A stretch of DNA of 49,704 nt, from IMG/VR virus record IMGVR_UViG_2703718837_000001; one strand, given 5' to 3'. A model generated the notes under the pieces. That model searched no databases. It was not told the DNA's origin and worked only from the letters and a program-made list of their open reading frames with translations. This document shows, in pieces, positions 17,303-39,084 of the stretch. Both the position numbers and the translations under genes were made by a program. This DNA comes from a virus (lineage: Duplodnaviria > Heunggongvirae > Uroviricota > Caudoviricetes). Within the stretch, counting starts at the first letter, position 1. Each line of letters opens with the position of its first letter.

Positions 17303-17488
17303 CAAACTGGATGGAAGCTCGTTACGCACTTCGGAGTTGCCTCTTAGGCGCATGGTCAACCTGGCAACTCGGTGGTTTGTCTGGGAGGACTAGGCCCAGC
17401 CATGCTTACCGCCGCGCCTGTCGCGGCTAACAGCTAAATCGCTCTAAAAATCACGATTCATTGATTCGATATTACACTAATAAATTTA

Positions 17489-20400
17489 TTATAGCAATAT
17501 TGCTATAACGTCATGAGCAACACCACGAGTGTCTCCCTTACAAGACACAGAACGTCTGGCAAAAAGAGGTTCCACTCTGAAGCCACTGTCCTGATAAAGT
17601 TCTCTGATGTTTGGCGCGCCACTGTTAGTAATGAGAACCTTTGCACCTCGGCGATGAGCATCCGTCAACAGAGACACCAGGCGTTTTTGCTCTTCAAACT
17701 TAAAGTCATGACCGGAATAGTTCGTGAACCCCTCTGTATTGGGGAGCGGTTCATACGGCGGATCGCAAAAGATGACATCTCCTTCTCCGGCAGCTTCAAT
17801 CACCGCTGCAAAATCACCGCATACAAACTCAGACCGCCCTTCCGCACCGAGGAAGGCTTCCATCTCCTGTAATGGAAAATGCGTAGACTTATACTTCCCA
17901 TACCCGACATTGAACTCACCGGCCTGGTTGTAGCGCGTCAATCCATTAAAACAATGTCGGTTCAGGAACAAAAACGCCGCTGCGCGATGTAAATCATCAT
18001 AGACTTGTTTGTTAAACGCATTCCGTACTGCCAGGAATCCCTCCTGGGTGTTGTAGTCCAGGAAGAAACGATGTGCCAGAGTGATAAGTGAATGCGCCTC
18101 GCGTTGCAGAGTCTTGTAAAAGTTAATCAGGTCAGCATTCACATCATTTAGCAGATTTTCCTGATATCCGGCATTCATGAAGACAGCTCCGCCACCAACG
18201 AAAGGTTCAATCAGGCGCTTCCCTTCTGGCAAATAGCGAAAGATTTGTTCCAGAACACCAAATTTTCCACCAGCCCATTTGAATATGGGCCGTTCGAATT
18301 CTGCCGCTGGTTTAACCTTTCGCTCTTTTGTTTCACTCCCTTCTTTTTGCCGACATGCAGCCTTAGTAATCCGATCGCCAATCCAGCGCATTACTGGTAT
18401 TGCCATACTATTTCCGATCGCTTTGTAACGCGGTCCGTCAGCTGCAAGCATCGCGGCCTCTTCTTCGTTTAAATCAGGATAGTTATTGCGAAGGTATGCT
18501 AGTTCATCTGAAGAAACTTTTTTACGCTTTCCCGTAGGGATCAACGTATGCCAATCAGGAAAACCTTGCAGCCTTTCACATTCGACAGGGGTAAGACGGC
18601 GCATTCTATCGTCGCCGAGCAATACAATTGGTGCTTCATGGTTACATGTCAAAGTTGGTGCCGAATTATCGGTTTTTATCTCAGCCCCTCCTTGCCCATG
18701 TGCCATGGCAATTATGTTTGTATCATCGCAAGATCTGATAGCGATGTTTGAAGTATATCTGGTAGTTTCCTTCCCCTCGCCTCTGCTCGGCGCAATATCC
18801 CGGCGCTCGCCTTCGAACTCAAAAAGTACCGTTGCGGGATCGAGGTCTGTTCGAGCACTTGCGACAACAAACACGCGTCGGCGTCGTTGTGCCACTCCGA
18901 AGTATTGGGCATCAAGGATTCTCCAGGCCACCTTTCGCTGCGGTCCATAAATACAACCACACTGCGGCCACTTTGGAGCATGGCAACCGGTTTTGCCATC
19001 CCACCGCCAGAACGCGTTACTTTTTCCTGATTCAGGTCGATCACCTGGTTCAAATGGCGCATCTTCTCCAGCCAATCCGGCAAGGAAACATCCGAAGGCG
19101 TTATCTGCCGATGACAAGACCCCTGGGACATTTTCCCAGACGATAACGGCTGGTTTGAGAAATGACTCAGCCCGTTTGTCGTCAATTGCATTTGCAAGCT
19201 CCACATACTTTAAAGTTAGCGCGCCACGCTCATCATCAAGCCCACCACGTAATCCAGCGATACTGAATGCCTGACAGTTATGGACCACCGCACCATTGAG
19301 GATATAGGAATGATCACCTTCGACTTCTATGTTGTATACAGTATCTAGGCCTACCGATTTAAACTCTTTGACTGTTCGTAAAAGCATTCCATGAGCCAAT
19401 CTTGATTTACGTGACAATTTCTGCGGGCAGATTGTTACCTGATAATAATTCCGTTGATTTACCACGCGATCCTCAATCACTTTTTTGGGCTCAACTTCAA
19501 TAAAGCTGACCGAAGAAACATAACCACAAGTCTGTGACAACTCCGCAACGCCCCAAGCAAGCGCAGGACTAACACTATTAATTCTAAATCCCGCTTTACC
19601 ACTTGGTGTCCCATCAGTATCAAGATAGCCTTGTAAAAACACATGACGCAATGGATGCGACATCACCCATGCAGGGATACGCTTAGCATGGCTTAACTCG
19701 CCAAAATGTTCATTAAGCCAATTGGCATAACACGTATCATTCAAGGTTACTTTGATGCTCCCTCGGATTTCGCTTGCCACGGAAAATATGTTTTCTGGTA
19801 TGCGGCAATGAAACTTTCTCAATTTCTGGCAATTTATGCCAAAAACAACCGCCTTCTTAGATTTACCTCTCCATCTCCTAATATATCCATCGCCAACATA
19901 AGCGCCCGCAAGATACATAGCCTGTTCTTCAGACAAGAACCGAGAACAAATATCTGGAGATGCAATATTGAAATTAGTTAGAGCACACCATTGATATCCC
20001 GGCATATCACATGCTGCTCGCCATTCCGGTTCAGACAACAACTCTCTCTTAAAATATGTGCCATTTTTCCGGGTGTTTTGGGCTTTCCACCGAACCGCCA
20101 GGAAGGGATGGTCATTGGTTGTTCTTATACCTAAAGGCTGCCCAACGGCATTAAGTAACCCCGTATTAGCTATTTTTGAACCAACTCTTTTTACTTGTTG
20201 TAACCGCCCGAGATGACTGACTACGTAATCGCCAGGGCAAACATCTTCTATTGGTTTATAACCATTTTTACAAAGAACCATATGCCCCGCGGTAAAACAT
20301 GGTGTCCCTCCCACCAGCACATCAGGGGCTTCAATTTCTCCGGCCTGGACTTTTTGGGCGAGTTTTGTCATGTCGCCAAGGTTCGCGACATGGGGCCAGC

Positions 20401-21453: not shown

Positions 21454-21781
21454 CCACAGAAAGCTCGTCTTTGTAGAAGAAGGTCAGGTTATGGCACCCC
21501 CTCGTTTGAGCGTATGAGCTGGGACCAATTTCGTTCTTCCAGACAAATGGCTTCAGATCCGTACGGCGAAGCATAAAAACGCAATTTGTTCCGCTCTGAT
21601 TCCCAATGAGGCAAAAGCCTTCTTTCACCTTGATAGCCTGCAAGTTGTCGAGTTCACCGCTGGTTACACGGCTATCGAACTCCTTGCGGCTTATTAGCTC
21701 CATCTGCATCTGACGACTCCAAACAAATGCCCATTGAAGGGCGATGGCTGAATGGTACCGAAAACACGATATAAAAAACAA
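21425..21781 (-). CDS. Small protein upstream of hrdC (position of P1 uhr)
   Basis: 118-aa ORF. The internal start at 21709 (MQMELISRK) has GGAG 8 nt upstream and leaves room for the operator/promoter at 21781-21797, so the real product is probably about 95 aa. Confidence 0.55.
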
Positions 21782-21797
21782 TATTTATTAGAGCAAT
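21781..21797 (-). promoter_or_regulatory. C1 operator
   Basis: Reverse complement of atatttattagagcaat = ATTGCTCTAATAAATAT, 16/17 to consensus. Lies between the divergent uhr-hrdC-dmt operon and the PAAR-like operon. Confidence 0.75.
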
Positions 21798-32813: not shown

Positions 32814-33323
32814 ATGGGGCACAATAACACTAAGGGAAACCGTAAATTTATTAAGGGCCGCTATACTGCCAACGCGGCCAAAGGCGAACGACTGGTATCT
32901 TCTGAATTCCAGCTCACTTTTGCAGGCCATGAAGATATCAGCGTACTGGTTCGCACGTCGCAAATTCCTGAAATGACCCGCGAGGATGTGGAGGACTATG
33001 GTCCGAATGGTGTGAAGTTCAACCAGCACGGTCCAATCCGTAACTCCGGGGAAATCCAGGTCCAGTGCGTGGAGACTATCGAAGGTGATATTCTTCAGTT
33101 CATTAAAGATCGCATTGCGGCGAAGGACTATGTTGATATCACGATGGCTGCGACCCCTGAATCCAAATCTTCCGGGGTTAACGCCGTGACAAAAGCTGCT
33201 ACAACAATTGAAATGTTGGACTGCAAAATCTACAGTGATGCAATCGACTTTAGTACCGAAGATGTGACTGCCGCTGTGCGTCCGTCACTTCGTATCGTCT
33301 ACAACTGGATTGATTGGGATTAA
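32814..33323 (+). CDS. Structural protein (position of P1 bplB)
   Basis: 169-aa ORF with RBS aaaggattttatATG, followed by terminator aaagctcc-ttcg-ggagctttttt (about 33340-33366). Confidence 0.6.
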   Translation: MGHNNTKGNRKFIKGRYTANAAKGERLVSSEFQLTFAGHEDISVLVRTSQIPEMTREDVEDYGPNGVKFNQHGPIRNSGEIQVQCVETIEGDILQFIKDRIAAKDYVDITMAATPESKSSGVNAVTKAATTIEMLDCKIYSDAIDFSTEDVTAAVRPSLRIVYNWIDWD

Positions 33324-33406
33324 GAGTCATCCCTTGTATTTTAAAGCTCCTTCGGGAGCTTTTTTGTGCTTAAATCATGTCAATATAGCGAAATTTTGAG
33401 CATATT

Positions 33407-33703
33407 ATGGAAATTGATTTTTCATACTCTCCTGAAACGATAGAACGAAGATTCGAAATAATTGGATGCAAAACTATTTCCGAGGAGCATTATTGGATTC
33501 TCTATGATGCCAATACATGGTTATGTGCCTTAGCAGAATGTCAGCCATCGTTATGTGTAGGGGAGGGGGCTTTTCGACATAAGGTGCTGGCTACACTTGA
33601 AGTGAACACGTTACGATATTGGTGTGTAGAAATACTTAGTGATAACAAAGAATTGCACTTATTATTGCTGAATAAGTGTGCTTCTCTGCGCAGAAAAGCA
33701 TGA
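33407..33703 (+). CDS. Small Cys-rich protein (position of P1 pmgF)
   Basis: 98-aa ORF, low GC, followed by a 13-bp-stem hairpin plus T-run (33831-33868). Confidence 0.5.
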   Translation: MEIDFSYSPETIERRFEIIGCKTISEEHYWILYDANTWLCALAECQPSLCVGEGAFRHKVLATLEVNTLRYWCVEILSDNKELHLLLLNKCASLRRKA

Positions 33704-33868
33704 GAAAACCCAACCGCTCTCCCGGAATTATCAGAAGAATATGTGCGGAAAGTTATAGCTAGCTATTGAAAAGCTAAAGTAGATCGGTTAGATTTGCATT
33801 ACTCATCTACCATGTGTAGAAAGAGCGATCGAACCCGATACATAGCAATATGTGTCGGGTTCAGCTTT

Positions 33869-34333
33869 TTATGTCCCAAGTGCTCTTTTTCTGCTTTGTT
33901 TGAGTGTTCTGATTTTACTGTCATAGGTTACAACATAGGCTGTTTTGAGAAGCCAATAGTCTCTACGTGCGGATAGCACAACAACGTAGTTTTCACACTC
34001 ATTCCAGATTACCCACTCTTCAGTTGGTCCTCGTCTTTCAGACCAACATGATATATCGCAATGGTTATAATTCCTTATCATATGCGCGATCCAGCGAATT
34101 CGCTTGCACCGTTCAAGATCGGGTATACGTTCTTCTTCTTTTTTTCCCTCTGATACTAAATGCCAAAATCCGAACTCTTTCCCATCATATTCCGGTGAAT
34201 AACGTAATCGAACAGGGAGACCCTTAAACGTTATATTAGAGATTAAAATGTCTTCTCTGACAATATCATATACATCGTCTATATACTCTTGCCAACTTCC
34301 ATTGAAGTACAATAAATCTGGCATTTGAAGCAT
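33869..34333 (-). CDS. Unknown protein, translationally coupled partner of the DUF3800-like gene (position of P1 rlfB)
   Basis: The track ORF starts at 34348, but ATG 34333 overlaps the upstream TGA by 1 nt (cgcTGATGctt). About 154 aa. Motif CKRIRWIAHMIRN...YVVVLSARRDYWLLKTAYVV. Confidence 0.6.
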   Translation of the reverse strand: MLQMPDLLYFNGSWQEYIDDVYDIVREDILISNITFKGLPVRLRYSPEYDGKEFGFWHLVSEGKKEEERIPDLERCKRIRWIAHMIRNYNHCDISCWSERRGPTEEWVIWNECENYVVVLSARRDYWLLKTAYVVTYDSKIRTLKQSRKRALGT

Positions 34334-35037
34334 CAGCGAGCCTCCCACACGAAAATATTAAATTTACTTTCTGTTGGAAGAGTGCTTTTTAGTAACTCCC
34401 TGTTTGTATGTGATTTTATCCTGTTTATGACTTGGATTTTTCCCGCGTTGCTATTCATTCCTCGATGAACGTAGCCTAATGCACCAATGAAAAGATCCGT
34501 TAGCTGCAATTGTTGCACTTCATGAGATCGTATATGTTGAATTCTGTTTATCGACTCATGATTGTAATCATAGCGATCATTGTGAAGAACCCCTCTTAAT
34601 TTCTCAATTTTTTCAATACCTAAAGTATCTTTTATATCTAGGTAGATATTGTATGTGTTGTTACTTTCTATTATGTTTTTTAAGACATAAAAAAACATCT
34701 TATAATAGAAAGTATTATGATCTTGATGGAATCGAGCATGGTCCAGTTGCTCTTTATCAGGAACAACAACACCTCTAAAGCGCAATGCTGGGTTGCTGAA
34801 GAAGTAATCTACGACATCTAAGTAAAATTCAACTTTGGACGCAGATACTTTAGTCCACTTGATTTCGAAATCAGGTTTTAGATTGTGTTTTAATTTTAAT
34901 TCCTTGATGTCTCTAGCAATTTTTTTTGTGATAGTACCAGGACACCAAAGCGCACCCAATACCATGACTTTATTATGATCATTTAGTAGGTGACAGGATT
35001 CATCGCAGAATACATTAAATGTTCTTCGGTTCAACAT
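34333..35037 (-). CDS. DUF3800-like protein (position of P1 rlfA)
   Basis: 234 aa. N-terminal FNVFCDESCH (the DES signature I associate with DUF3800) and C-terminal QLQLTDLFIGALGY. About 33% GC. Confidence 0.6.
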   Translation of the reverse strand: MLNRRTFNVFCDESCHLLNDHNKVMVLGALWCPGTITKKIARDIKELKLKHNLKPDFEIKWTKVSASKVEFYLDVVDYFFSNPALRFRGVVVPDKEQLDHARFHQDHNTFYYKMFFYVLKNIIESNNTYNIYLDIKDTLGIEKIEKLRGVLHNDRYDYNHESINRIQHIRSHEVQQLQLTDLFIGALGYVHRGMNSNAGKIQVINRIKSHTNRELLKSTLPTESKFNIFVWEAR

Positions 35038-35185
35038 GTTAACTCCACTTATTGTTAGGTAGAATTGTCCGTTAGTTGTTTATTAATTGCAATAATGGGA
35101 CGTCCAGTTTTGGCAACTGTGTCCTCTTACCAAGACGCCTATGAGTTTGCCTCATGGCAAACTAGAAGTGTTGAAAGCATGCATG

Positions 35186-35202
35186 GTTCTAATTAGAGCA
35201 AT
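35186..35202 (-). promoter_or_regulatory. C1-operator-like half-conserved site between repL and the DUF3800-like pair
   Basis: Reverse complement = ATTGCTCTAATTAGAAC: the first 11 nt are identical to the operator consensus, the rest diverges. Confidence 0.4.
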
Positions 35203-35205
35203 TCA

Positions 35206-36051
35206 TTAACCTCTGAATCCTGCCGGTATACCCCATTGTTCGTTATCTTTATTTTTGGCTAAAACCGCATTAAGAGCTTCGTTTACCGTCATGCAATGCG
35301 GCAGATTATCGAAGTTTGATACCCCGCCAATATCAGGAGAACGCTTGTTCTTCAGGTAAGCATATTTCCGCGCTGCCGCCTCTACTTTCTGCTTGAACTC
35401 ATGTTTTTGAGCGCGTTTTTTGGATAACCGCAGATTGTCAGCCTTTGCTTTTGCCTCAGCGATCCATGAAGTCAATTTTTTGAGTCTGGTCGTTCCGGCA
35501 CCGCCGGAAACTGATCTTTTTGTTTTTTTAACTTGTGACTTCTTATTCTTTATTGCCACGTCATCCTGACAGGGGGAGGGGGTATCATTTTGACATGGGG
35601 GTGTGGATAAAAAATTAAATAAAGCCAATGTCTTAGCGAGAACAGCTTTAACCTTGGTTGCCGCTGAAGAGATCTTTAATTTGCTTTCAATCAGCGCATT
35701 TTTGGCTTGTTGTGCGAAGGCCAAAAAGGATGGTGTAAACCGGTACAGGTTAGCGCGACGTTCACGGTGATCGCCGATAACAATCTCTACAGACAGGATT
35801 CCTTTGTTTACAGCTTCACGGAATGCACGAACGACGGTTGATTGGCTATAACCAGTTTCTGCCGCGATCAGGCGGTGAGGCTTGTGAATGAAGTATTCAC
35901 TGGTTGTTGCCGCGAGATTTGCACATTGCGACAGGATATGCCCGGCGCTACGGGATAGACCGGAGTGTGTTACAAAGCAGGCCAATTCATAGCCAGAAAA
36001 AGTAAAATCGCTCATCGTTATACAGCTCAGGAAAGTGACTTTAGCCAGCAT
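35206..36051 (-). CDS. repL: Lytic replication initiator RepL (oriL expected inside the gene)
   Basis: 281-aa ORF directly downstream of kilA, as in the P1 kilA-repL operon. HTH-like STVVRAFREAVNKGIL. Confidence 0.8.
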   Translation of the reverse strand: MLAKVTFLSCITMSDFTFSGYELACFVTHSGLSRSAGHILSQCANLAATTSEYFIHKPHRLIAAETGYSQSTVVRAFREAVNKGILSVEIVIGDHRERRANLYRFTPSFLAFAQQAKNALIESKLKISSAATKVKAVLAKTLALFNFLSTPPCQNDTPSPCQDDVAIKNKKSQVKKTKRSVSGGAGTTRLKKLTSWIAEAKAKADNLRLSKKRAQKHEFKQKVEAAARKYAYLKNKRSPDIGGVSNFDNLPHCMTVNEALNAVLAKNKDNEQWGIPAGFRG

Positions 36052-36080
36052 TACAATGCTGGTGGTTCTTACTACGTCTG

Positions 36081-36881
36081 TTAGTGCGTTGCCGCGACAG
36101 GTACCAGCACACCAGCATCAAGCAATCGCTTCATCAGCCACTGCTGACCTTTGCCGGTTATACGAGTCGTGAAAGAAATCCTGCTTCCATTGCTTGTATC
36201 GATCACGGTTTCTTTAAGGGTGAAATACCCACGGGATATGTATTCTTGTTTGGGGACGTTCCTGCGTTCACCGGTTGCGATCAGAATTCCGTTATCACGC
36301 AACCAGGTGAAGAGATAGTTTTGGCCCAGGCCGAGCACTTTGGCATAGTTGCCGATTAGAACCCCGCTGGCGGTAGCAACGCGTTCGGCGAATTCGACTT
36401 TAGGTGCATCCATCAGCATTTTTTGCTCCAGCCGTTGCTTTTGCTCTGCCAGGTCAGCAGCCAAACGGAGAGCTTCTGGGAGACTCTGCGGAATAGCAGG
36501 TTGTAATCTTCCAGCTCGATAGTCGATAAATGTCTGGTTTACCTTCAGCCGAAACGCGGGAGAAATCCAACCTGCGTACTCCACTGCGAGCAATTCATGG
36601 GCAAAAGTGCCGCCGCCACGGCCTTCGAACGAAACTATGCAATTCTGCATAGTTTCTTTTTCAAGCTCTTCGATGAGCTGTTTAGCTGACAGCGTTCTTA
36701 GCCATTGAGCTGGCGCTTTATGGGCACCGAGTCCGCTCGCTCTGTGTAGAGCATTAAGGTTGTAACGGCCAGCGCGGTCGGTCGTAATTTCAACACCACA
36801 AATAACGGGCAGAGTGGTTGAAGGATCGACATTTTGATGAAGGTTTGATATATTCATATCCGCATTGAATGTTTGTTGCAT
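36081..36881 (-). CDS. kilA: KilA (KilA-N domain plus KilAC/ANT C-terminal domain)
   Basis: 266 aa. KilA-N signature (YNLNALHRASG...PAQWLR). The C-terminal 135 aa are paralogous to the Ant C-terminus. Confidence 0.85.
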   Translation of the reverse strand: MQQTFNADMNISNLHQNVDPSTTLPVICGVEITTDRAGRYNLNALHRASGLGAHKAPAQWLRTLSAKQLIEELEKETMQNCIVSFEGRGGGTFAHELLAVEYAGWISPAFRLKVNQTFIDYRAGRLQPAIPQSLPEALRLAADLAEQKQRLEQKMLMDAPKVEFAERVATASGVLIGNYAKVLGLGQNYLFTWLRDNGILIATGERRNVPKQEYISRGYFTLKETVIDTSNGSRISFTTRITGKGQQWLMKRLLDAGVLVPVAATH

Positions 36882-36951
36882 TTTTTCTCCAAATTTGCAT
36901 CAACCTTCAATCACCAGCTCGAAATGGTGATTTCTTTGTACTCAGAAAACA

Positions 36952-36968
36952 AAAATTATTAGAGCAAA
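36952..36968 (-). promoter_or_regulatory. C1 operator Op53-equivalent at the kilA-repL promoter
   Basis: Reverse complement = TTTGCTCTAATAATTTT, about 70 nt upstream of the kilA ATG. Confidence 0.7.
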
Positions 36969-37012
36969 TTTTTCTGACTCGATCCAGATCGGGTTGGTCG
37001 ATCTGCTCAGAA

Positions 37013-39067: not shown

Positions 39068-39084
39068 AAATTTATTAGAGCAGG
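39068..39084 (-). promoter_or_regulatory. C1 operator Op51-equivalent at the immI promoter
   Basis: Reverse complement = CCTGCTCTAATAAATTT (15/17), upstream of c4-icd-ant. Confidence 0.7.

What the first reader, a model, noticed from the sequence alone, without database searches (positions are those of the whole stretch)
33869..35202. Translationally coupled DUF3800-like plus 154-aa pair downstream of repL, preceded by a half C1 operator
The two ORFs overlap by one nucleotide (TGATG), have about 33% GC against about 48% in the flanks, and occupy the slot P1 calls rlfA-rlfB (function unknown). The first begins FNVFCDESCH, the D-E-S signature I associate with DUF3800. The second carries CKRIRWIAHMIRN...YVVVLSARRDYWLLKTAYVV, which recalls small toxin/nuclease-like folds. 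An 11/17 C1-operator-like site (ATTGCTCTAAT..) lies between repL and the pair, so expression may be tied to derepression or lytic replication. A two-gene, horizontally acquired, coupled module next to a lytic replicon is a plausible uncharacterised conflict system (abortive infection, exclusion of competing replicons, or a replication accessory).
Basis: partly seen in the sequence, partly recalled or inferred. Interest (0 to 1): 0.6.

Follow-up and report, generated by a model that had tools for sequence, protein, structure and literature searches.

The report
P1 rlfA-rlfB: candidate two-nuclease defence cassette
The two overlapping genes are phage P1's long-annotated but unstudied rlfA-rlfB pair: an RNase H-like enzyme plus a small toxin-like partner that travel together across many bacterial phyla, often inside restriction-modification operons, so they are probably a mobile conflict or defence module and not a replication function.

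Summary
Two minus-strand ORFs, 34333-35037 (234 aa) and 33869-34333 (154 aa), overlap in TGATG. Their GC is 35% and 39% against 46-51% in the flanks. They are P1 rlfA/rlfB (P7 rapA/rapB) at 98.5% nucleotide identity. The upstream site is P1's annotated C1 operator Orlf/Op55.

Both proteins match PADLOC's untested candidate system PDC-M04 (1e-95 and 2e-52). The pair is obligate: 80/80 genome loci found through RlfA have RlfB directly downstream, and 29/29 viral loci found through RlfB have RlfA directly upstream. The gene junction overlaps in 93 of 106 loci. Many copies lie between the methylase/specificity and restriction genes of Type I or Type III RM systems. RepL is absent from all non-P1 loci. 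Only 98 of 680 matching P1-like plasmids carry the pair, and P1 does not need it for growth.

Verdict: accessory conflict cargo, already catalogued as a candidate, with its mechanism untested. Moderate interest.

The parts
34333..35037 (-). rlfA (P7 rapA): 234-aa DUF3800 protein with a type-2 RNase H-like fold; stop codon included
33869..34333 (-). rlfB (P7 rapB): 154-aa partner protein with no Pfam family; C-terminal half is RelE/colicin-D-like at fold level; stop codon included
34331..34335 (-). TGATG stop/start overlap that couples rlfB translation to rlfA
   Evidence: Sequence. The junction overlaps in 93 of 106 homologous loci and is never more than 14 nt apart.
34341..34346 (-). GGGAGG Shine-Dalgarno for rlfB, inside the rlfA coding end
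   Evidence: Read from the sequence.
35064..35092 (-). Predicted sigma-70 promoter PrlfA (TTGCAA-17-GACAAT)
   Evidence: P1 GenBank annotation transferred by coordinates and the window sequence. A TTGCAA/TTGCAC/TTGAAC element at the same distance is shared with the Klebsiella and Biostraticola chromosomal homologues. It was not reported by the consensus scan. Prediction only.
35186..35202 (-). C1 operator-like site (P1 Orlf / Op55), 12/17 to consensus; only the 11-mer at 35192-35202 is conserved backbone
   Evidence: Homology with P1-like plasmids that carry other cargo resumes at 35192.
33831..33862 (.). 14-bp-stem hairpin between the convergent rlfB and pmgF genes; likely a shared terminator
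   Evidence: I6.
33367..35191 (.). Variable low-GC cargo slot of P1-like phage-plasmids (pmgF-rlfB-rlfA here)
   Evidence: 680 plasmid records match the flanks, but only 98 cover at least 80% of the query. Alternative cargo includes hokD, an N-acetyltransferase and Ail/Lom. GC of the slot is 0.374. It is 'variable region 5' in PMC9603915.

Best explanation
rlfA-rlfB is a self-contained, horizontally mobile two-protein nuclease cassette (PADLOC candidate PDC-M04). P1-like phage-plasmids carry it as optional cargo in a variable slot next to repL. Its most likely role is conflict between mobile elements, meaning anti-phage or anti-plasmid defence of the lysogen, rather than replication.

RlfA is a metal-dependent nuclease with a type-2 RNase H fold and an intact set of four acidic residues. 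I infer that it acts on, or senses, RNA:DNA hybrids or a related structured nucleic acid. RlfB is made in fixed proportion through translational coupling. I infer that it binds RlfA and supplies a RelE/colicin-D-like RNase, or a regulatory activity, built around invariant His, Glu and Arg residues. Activation by an invader would then degrade nucleic acid or arrest translation.

Shown here: gene identity, folds, conserved residues, obligate pairing, conserved coupling, restriction-modification (RM) embedding and independence from RepL. Inferred: complex formation, substrates, trigger and phenotype.
For: - PADLOC PDC-M04A/B matches at 1e-95 and 2e-52. PDC systems are candidates derived from genes embedded in BREX, DISARM and Type I RM (10.1101/2024.01.29.577857).
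- Independent check on 31 genome loci. The two nearest upstream ORFs include 13 HsdS and 10 HsdM. The two nearest downstream ORFs include 8 ResIII and 5 HSDR_N. GmrSD, KwaB, nSTAND3 and AIPR also occur.
- Explicit architectures: HsdS-A-B-HsdR (L007, L014), Mod-A-B-Res (L050, L078) and DUF1156 MTase-A-B-PLD helicase (L046).
- Obligate pairing in 80/80 and 29/29 loci. The junction overlaps in 93/106 loci.
- The A and B identity matrices are correlated (r 0.545, Mantel p 0.001). One in-frame A-B fusion exists (P0348).
- The pair is cargo: low GC, present in 98 of 680 matching P1-like plasmids and in 121 of 5426 complete E. coli genomes. Knock-down of either gene leaves P1 viable (PMC10695390).
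- DUF3800 is the effector of type VII retrons and is linked to Cas12a2/a3 loci (PMC7736814, PMC10910872).
Against: - No phenotype has been reported. PDC-M04 is explicitly untested, and no paper in the library mentions it.
- In Enterobacterales the pair is not in defence islands. In Klebsiella it sits between sugar-utilisation genes and symE.
- In P1 it lies downstream of the C1-repressed kilA-repL operon with no detectable terminator in between. It is reported as induced early in infection along with repL (10.64898/2025.12.28.696737). That is not the expression pattern expected of a lysogen-protecting gene unless PrlfA is active in lysogens.
- A large P1-type phage-plasmid defence survey did not list it.
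Confidence: 0.5

Rival explanations
1. Toxin-antitoxin-like addiction module. RlfB is a RelE-fold toxin neutralised by the upstream, co-translated RlfA. The pair stabilises whatever carries it (the P1 plasmid or an RM operon) by post-segregational killing, and any phage defence is secondary.
For: - Gene order and coupling are typical of type II TA operons.
- Alternative cargo in the same P1 slot includes the type I toxin hokD. The Klebsiella copy sits next to symE.
- Three of the 80 genome loci have a frameshifted or split RlfB beside an intact RlfA (L019, L059, L068).
Against: - RlfA is a 234-aa enzyme with an invariant catalytic set and is more conserved than RlfB (mean pairwise identity 56% vs 38%). 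This is the opposite of a labile DNA-binding antitoxin.
- No HTH or other DNA-binding domain was found.
- One E. coli plasmid (L118) has RlfA frameshifted near its C-terminus beside an intact RlfB.
- The split-B loci were retrieved through RlfA, so that asymmetry is biased.
- P1 already has phd-doc (own knowledge).
Confidence: 0.2
2. Counter-defence or lytic-cycle helper for P1. The pair is expressed with kilA-repL after C1 derepression, and the RNase H-like enzyme destroys host RNA:DNA-based immunity (for example retron msDNA or guide RNAs) or competing replicons.
For: - It lies directly downstream of repL with no terminator detected in between.
- A C1 operator remnant sits at the junction.
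- Early induction together with repL is reported in P1vir infection.
Against: - The family is overwhelmingly cellular: 1860 clusters at 50% identity.
- It is often embedded in RM operons, on the defence side.
- RlfB is found in only 9 of 50,697 phage records, 8 of them P1/P7-like.
- The operator 11-mer is a backbone feature that is also present with other cargo.
Confidence: 0.08
3. Lytic-replication accessory, as the names 'replication-linked function' and 'replication protein' imply. RlfA would process R-loops or primers at the transcription-activated oriL inside repL.
For: - Position next to repL/oriL and the P1 annotation 'possibly associated with lytic replication'.
- An RNase H fold could in principle process an RNA primer, by analogy with ColE1 (own knowledge).
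Against: - RepL is absent within ±10 kb of all 80 genome loci and of the 15 non-P1 viral loci.
- 582 of the 680 matching P1-like plasmids keep repL but lack the pair.
- rlfA and rlfB are scored non-essential by CRISPRi in P1 (PMC10695390).
- P1-based PAC vectors carry the repL region without rlfA, according to the notes in the P1 record.
Confidence: 0.05

Closest known systems
Phage P1 rlfA-rlfB / phage P7 rapA-rapB
   Same: The same genes: 98.5% nucleotide identity over 33600-35300, with the same order, the same overlap and the same flanking repL, Orlf operator and pmgF.
   Different: Nothing structural differs. The published annotation ('possibly associated with lytic replication'; RefSeq 'replication protein') is not supported by the comparative data here.
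PADLOC phage defence candidate PDC-M04 (two-gene, untested)
   Same: Both proteins hit the PDC-M04A and PDC-M04B models nearly end to end (1e-95 and 2e-52). The genes are adjacent on the same strand. Homologues are embedded in RM systems, as in the discovery logic for PDC systems.
   Different: Here the cassette stands alone on a phage-plasmid and is not embedded in an RM, BREX or DISARM operon. No member of the family has a demonstrated phenotype.
Type 2 RNase H (RNase HII / H2A / HIII)
   Different: Sequence identity is 7-13%, and there is no Pfam RNase_HII match. RlfA has an extra invariant Cys/His cluster (C11, C15, H16, C32) and an obligate small partner. The substrate is unknown.
DUF3800 effectors of type VII retrons and TPR-DUF3800 proteins of Cas12a2/a3 loci
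   Same: The same Pfam domain, used as an accessory or effector nuclease in immune loci (PMC7736814, PMC10910872, PMC13594972).
   Different: RlfA has no RT, TPR or CRISPR partner. It has DEDD, not the DEED reported for retron VII, and it keeps the QxxD glutamine. None of the Rfam DUF3800-associated RNA motifs was found in the window or in 20 related loci.
RelE/ParE-BECR fold RNase toxins (RelE, YafQ, HigB, YoeB, MqsR, BrnT, colicin D, CdiA-CT)
PrrC anticodon nuclease embedded in the EcoprrI Type I RM locus (own knowledge: Kaufmann and colleagues)
   Same: An RNase-type module inserted between the genes of an RM operon. PrrC is the paradigm of a second-line defence released when a phage disables restriction.
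   Different: There is no homology. PrrC is a single ABC-ATPase-like protein. Whether RlfAB interacts with RM enzymes is unknown, and the P1 and Klebsiella copies work without an adjacent RM system.

Membership tests
DUF3800 (PF12686) | Profile match above Pfam's gathering score | tested here: met
   54.2 bits against a cut-off of 21, E 3.5e-14, covering profile positions 1-148 of 149.
DUF3800 (PF12686) | N-terminal DE motif and C-terminal QxxD motif | tested here: met
   D12-E13 in FCDESCH and Q178-L-T-D181. All are invariant in 55 homologues. The motif definition is quoted in PMC7736814.
PADLOC PDC-M04 | Both component models matched by adjacent same-strand genes | tested here: met
   PDC-M04A 1e-95 (residues 5-233) and PDC-M04B 2.2e-52 (residues 3-150). 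The genes overlap by 1 nt.
PADLOC PDC-M04 | Protects against phage | not testable with these tools
   PDC systems are described as 145 untested candidates. No paper mentions PDC-M04.
Type 2 RNase H | RNase H fold with RNase HII-type topology | tested here: met
Type 2 RNase H | Four catalytic carboxylates superposable on DEDD | tested here: inconclusive
   Invariant D12, E13, D134/D137 and D181 lie on the topologically expected elements. Model coordinates could not be superposed here.
Type 2 RNase H | Sequence-family membership (Pfam RNase_HII) and cleavage of RNA:DNA hybrids | tested here: not met
   No RNase_HII hit at E up to 1 and no PDB sequence hit. Activity cannot be tested here.
RelE/ParE-BECR toxin superfamily | Fold similarity | tested here: inconclusive
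RelE/ParE-BECR toxin superfamily | Profile-level sequence similarity | tested here: not met
   No Pfam, NCBIfam or PDB profile hit for the full protein or for the C-terminal domain.
Type II toxin-antitoxin module | Small labile antitoxin with a DNA-binding domain that neutralises a more conserved toxin | tested here: not met
   The upstream protein is a 234-aa enzyme with no DNA-binding domain, and it is more conserved than RlfB (56% vs 38% mean pairwise identity).
Type II toxin-antitoxin module | Toxicity of one partner, relieved by the other | not testable with these tools
   This needs expression experiments.
P1 C1 operator | 17-bp asymmetric consensus ATTGCTCTAATAAATTT | tested here: inconclusive
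   12/17 matches with the first 11 exact. It falls outside the 3-or-fewer-mismatch set of 8 sites in the window. The 11-mer is far above chance. The site is annotated as Orlf/Op55 in P1. C1 binding cannot be tested here.
P1 lytic replicon (repL/oriL) accessory | Co-inheritance with repL and a requirement for lytic growth | tested here: not met
   RepL is absent from 95 non-P1 loci. The pair is absent from 582 of 680 matching P1-like plasmids. It is non-essential by CRISPRi (PMC10695390).

The most novel reading that the evidence does not exclude
RlfAB may be a genuine, mechanistically new immune module. An RNase H2-like enzyme would read out RNA:DNA hybrids or replication intermediates of an invader and control, or cooperate with, a RelE/colicin-D-like RNase. 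In many phyla it would serve as a second line of defence wired into Type I and Type III RM operons, analogous to PrrC. The classic P1 'replication-linked' genes would then be a prophage-borne copy of it. This would also give the first function to the DUF3800 domain that recurs in retron VII and Cas12a2/a3 loci.
Probability: 0.35. Interest if true: 0.7.

Novelty: already known. Interest (0 to 1): 0.42.

Why it matters
P1 is one of the most tractable phage-plasmids, and rlfA/rlfB have carried an unsupported 'replication' label since the genome paper. That label has spread into RefSeq ('replication protein', 'oxidoreductase') and PHROGs.

Three points together turn a vague annotation into a cheap, testable hypothesis in a model system. 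The pair is the PADLOC candidate PDC-M04. It combines an RNase H2-like enzyme with a toxin-like partner. It is embedded in Type I and Type III RM operons across phyla.

A positive result would assign a function to DUF3800, a domain that recurs in retron and CRISPR loci and beside eleven orphan RNA motifs. A negative result would remove a candidate from defence catalogues.

Tried and rejected
- Rfam scan of window 33000-37000 at E up to 10, and of 20 related loci at gathering score. No DUF3800-associated RNA motif or other relevant family was found.
- NCBIfam: no hit for either protein.
- PDB sequence searches with the RlfA and RlfB profiles, and with an RlfB C-terminal-domain profile. Only noise was returned.
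- Pfam on 18 RlfB C-terminal domains at E up to 10: noise.
- Foldseek of RlfB against PDB: nothing significant. The afdb50 library was not available.
- Search for terminal direct or inverted repeats that would mark the cassette as a transposon-like unit: none flank it.
- The 20-bp hairpin inside rlfA (34662-34714, z = -4.6) was tested as a possible conserved RNA element. It is confined to the P1-type allele (median z -0.36 over 94 homologues), so I rejected it as a family feature.
- The 30-bp palindrome over the predicted -35 (35087-35116) is not conserved in the enterobacterial homologues.
- Literature: no paper mentions PDC-M04. The P1 genome paper (PMC523184) and one 2026 preprint that mentions DUF3800 could not be opened. 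An Op55 search gave nothing useful.
- The asymmetry of gene decay (split B with intact A) is not used as evidence for toxin status. Retrieval was biased, and a counter-example exists (L118).

Full report
**What is there.**
On the minus strand, ORF-A (34333-35037, 234 aa) and ORF-B (33869-34333, 154 aa) overlap by one base in TGATG. A GGGAGG ribosome-binding site for ORF-B lies inside the end of ORF-A. GC is 34.8% for A and 38.9% for B. RepL is 45.5%, bplB 48.2% and the left 5 kb 50.6%.

The stretch 33600-35300 is 98.5% identical to P1 rlfA-rlfB and P7 rapA-rapB. The P1 record annotates both genes as 'possibly associated with lytic replication'. It also annotates a predicted promoter PrlfA and, at the position matching window 35186-35202, the 'monovalent C1-controlled operator Orlf; former Op55'. 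The site matches the C1 consensus at 12 of 17 positions, and the first 11 bases are exact. That 11-mer occurs four times in the window against 0.04 expected.

**The proteins.**

RlfB matches nothing in Pfam or NCBIfam. PHROGs calls it 'replication protein' and RefSeq calls its homologues 'oxidoreductase'. Neither label has a visible basis. Its model is confident (pLDDT 90.6). It has an N-terminal helical part that carries an invariant FWH motif. A C-terminal helix-helix-four-strand-helix unit follows.

**Is it a unit?**
Yes. A scan of one genome per species with the RlfA profile returned 583 confirmed matches. In the best 80, which span Bacteroidota, Nitrospirota, Chloroflexota, Desulfobacterota, Acidobacteriota, Cyanobacteria, Planctomycetota and Gammaproteobacteria, an RlfB homologue lies immediately downstream on the same strand in 80 of 80 loci. 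Three of those RlfB copies are frameshifted. A scan of viral contigs with the RlfB profile returned 29 loci, and all have RlfA immediately upstream.

The stop/start junction overlaps in 93 of 106 loci, most often as ATGA or TAATG/TGATG, and is never more than 14 nt apart. The pairwise identity matrices of A and B are correlated (r 0.545, Mantel p 0.001). A is the slower-evolving partner, at 56% against 38% mean identity. One representative protein is an in-frame fusion of the RlfA C-terminus to RlfB. The RlfB family has 1860 clusters at 50% identity, and almost all members are 150-190 aa stand-alone proteins.

**Context.**
Both proteins hit PADLOC's PDC-M04A/B models (1e-95 and 2e-52). PDC systems are 145 untested candidates nominated because they are embedded in BREX, DISARM or Type I RM operons. 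No paper in the library mentions PDC-M04.

I re-tested the association on 31 loci that have at least 6 kb on both sides. Among the two nearest upstream ORFs, 13 are HsdS and 10 are HsdM. Among the two nearest downstream ORFs, 8 carry ResIII and 5 carry HSDR_N. Eco57I/MmeI-type methylases, GmrSD, KwaB, nSTAND3 and AIPR also occur.

Five loci checked explicitly read as follows:
- HsdS-RlfA-RlfB-HsdR in two loci (L007, L014).
- Mod-RlfA-RlfB-Res in two loci (L050, L078).
- DUF1156 methylase-RlfA-RlfB-PLD helicase in one locus (L046).

In Enterobacterales the pair stands alone instead. In Klebsiella chromosomes it lies between sugar-utilisation genes and symE.

**The P1 slot.**
Of 680 P1-like plasmid records that match 33300-36100, only 98 cover at least 80% of the query. 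The rest lose homology between about 33366 and 35192 and carry other cargo there: hokD with an 81-aa ORF, an N-acetyltransferase, or Ail/Lom. This agrees with 'variable region 5' of P1-like elements (PMC9603915).

The right-hand breakpoint falls inside the operator. The 11-mer ATTGCTCTAAT follows the repL stop codon in every variant examined, while the remaining six bases differ with the cargo and never match the consensus. The 'half operator' is thus a backbone relic at the cargo boundary and is not part of the cassette. It lies about 95 nt upstream of the predicted -35, so it cannot occlude PrlfA.

No minus-strand terminator is detected between repL and rlfA, so read-through from the C1-controlled kilA-repL operon is possible. 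A -35-like TTGCAA about 50 nt upstream of the start codon is shared with the Klebsiella and Biostraticola homologues, which hints at a promoter that travels with the cassette. A P1vir transcriptome preprint groups rlfA/B with early-induced replication genes.

**Against a replication role.**
- RepL is absent within 10 kb of all 80 genome loci and of the 15 non-P1 viral loci.
- RlfB occurs in only 9 of 50,697 phage records, 8 of them P1/P7-like.
- 121 of 5426 complete E. coli genomes carry the pair, almost always on plasmids.
- CRISPRi knock-down of rlfA or rlfB leaves P1 viable (PMC10695390).

**Mechanism: what is shown and what is inferred.**
Shown:
- a conserved, translationally coupled pair;
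- an RNase H2-type fold with four invariant acidic residues;
- a fast-evolving partner with a toxin-like C-terminal domain;
- recurrent insertion between the modification and restriction genes of RM systems;
- cargo status in P1.

Inferred: the two proteins form a complex; RlfA cleaves or senses RNA:DNA hybrids or a related structure; RlfB supplies or regulates an RNase activity; and the outcome is exclusion of invading phages or plasmids.

I put 0.5 on the defence/conflict reading, 0.2 on a TA-like addiction module, 0.08 on a P1 counter-defence or lytic helper, and 0.05 on the replication accessory. The remainder is left open. The TA reading is weakened because RlfA is a conserved enzyme rather than a labile repressor, and because one plasmid has a damaged rlfA next to an intact rlfB.

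**Novelty and verdict.**
The genes are P1's own rlfA/rlfB, and the family is already in PADLOC as an untested candidate. As an object it is therefore already known.

Three things appear to be unreported in the searchable literature:
- the link between P1 rlfAB and PDC-M04;
- the structural pairing of an RNase H2-like enzyme with a RelE-like partner;
- embedding in Type III as well as Type I RM operons.

Interest is moderate: a cheap experiment in a classic system could give DUF3800 its first function.

Noticed in passing
window 35186-35202 and 33366-35192: The right boundary of the variable cargo slot falls inside the C1 operator Orlf/Op55. The 11-mer ATTGCTCTAAT next to the repL stop codon is kept in P1-like plasmids with rlfAB, hokD or N-acetyltransferase cargo. 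The other six bases change with the cargo and never match the consensus.
   Followed up: yes
L115, L116, L117 (slot equivalent to window 33367-35191): Alternative cargo in the same slot of P1-like plasmids includes the type I toxin hokD with an 81-aa ORF, a 210-aa N-acetyltransferase, and Ail/Lom. The slot seems to collect small toxin or accessory modules.
   Followed up: partly
window 34662-34714 (-), inside rlfA: A hairpin with a stem of about 20 bp (13-nt perfect arms plus an 8-bp extension) lies in the coding sequence. MFE is -16 kcal/mol and z = -4.6. It is present only in the P1-type allele and is not conserved in 94 homologues (median z -0.36).
   Followed up: yes
window 35087-35116: An imperfect 30-bp palindrome centred on GACGTC overlaps the -35 of the predicted rlfA promoter. 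It is not conserved upstream of the Klebsiella or Biostraticola homologues.
   Followed up: partly
RlfB homologues P0002, P0007, P0153 etc.; phrog_16230; NC_005856: RlfB homologues are named 'oxidoreductase' in NCBI records and 'replication protein' in RefSeq P1/P7 and PHROGs. In many E. coli RefSeq records the gene is not annotated at all. No evidence supports either name.
   Followed up: partly
window 33831-33862: A 14-bp-stem hairpin sits between the convergent rlfB and pmgF genes, with a T-run on the plus-strand side. It is probably a shared or bidirectional terminator.
   Followed up: no
RlfA residues C11, C15, H16, C32 (window about 34942-35007): An invariant or near-invariant Cys/His cluster surrounds the catalytic D12-E13 pair. 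This could be a structural or second metal site that canonical RNase HII lacks.
   Followed up: no
window 3757-3822, 7430-7446, 17471-17498, 21781-21797, 36952-36968, 39068-39084: Eight good C1-operator matches (3 or fewer mismatches; 0.39 expected) lie elsewhere in the window, including two closely spaced or overlapping inverted pairs. This is consistent with a complete P1/P7-type immunity circuit.
   Followed up: no
L119 (E. coli contig ACAMSG010000070.1): In this P1-like element rlfA is truncated after about residue 157 and rlfB is gone. A CNF1-family toxin gene (ToxA_N/CNF1 domains) lies next to the break. This may be the cnf3-carrying P1 clade described in 10.1101/2025.09.12.675607.
   Followed up: no
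L074 65-140: A group II intron domain (Rfam RF00029, 63 bits) lies directly upstream of the rlfA homologue in a Bacteroidales contig.
   Followed up: no
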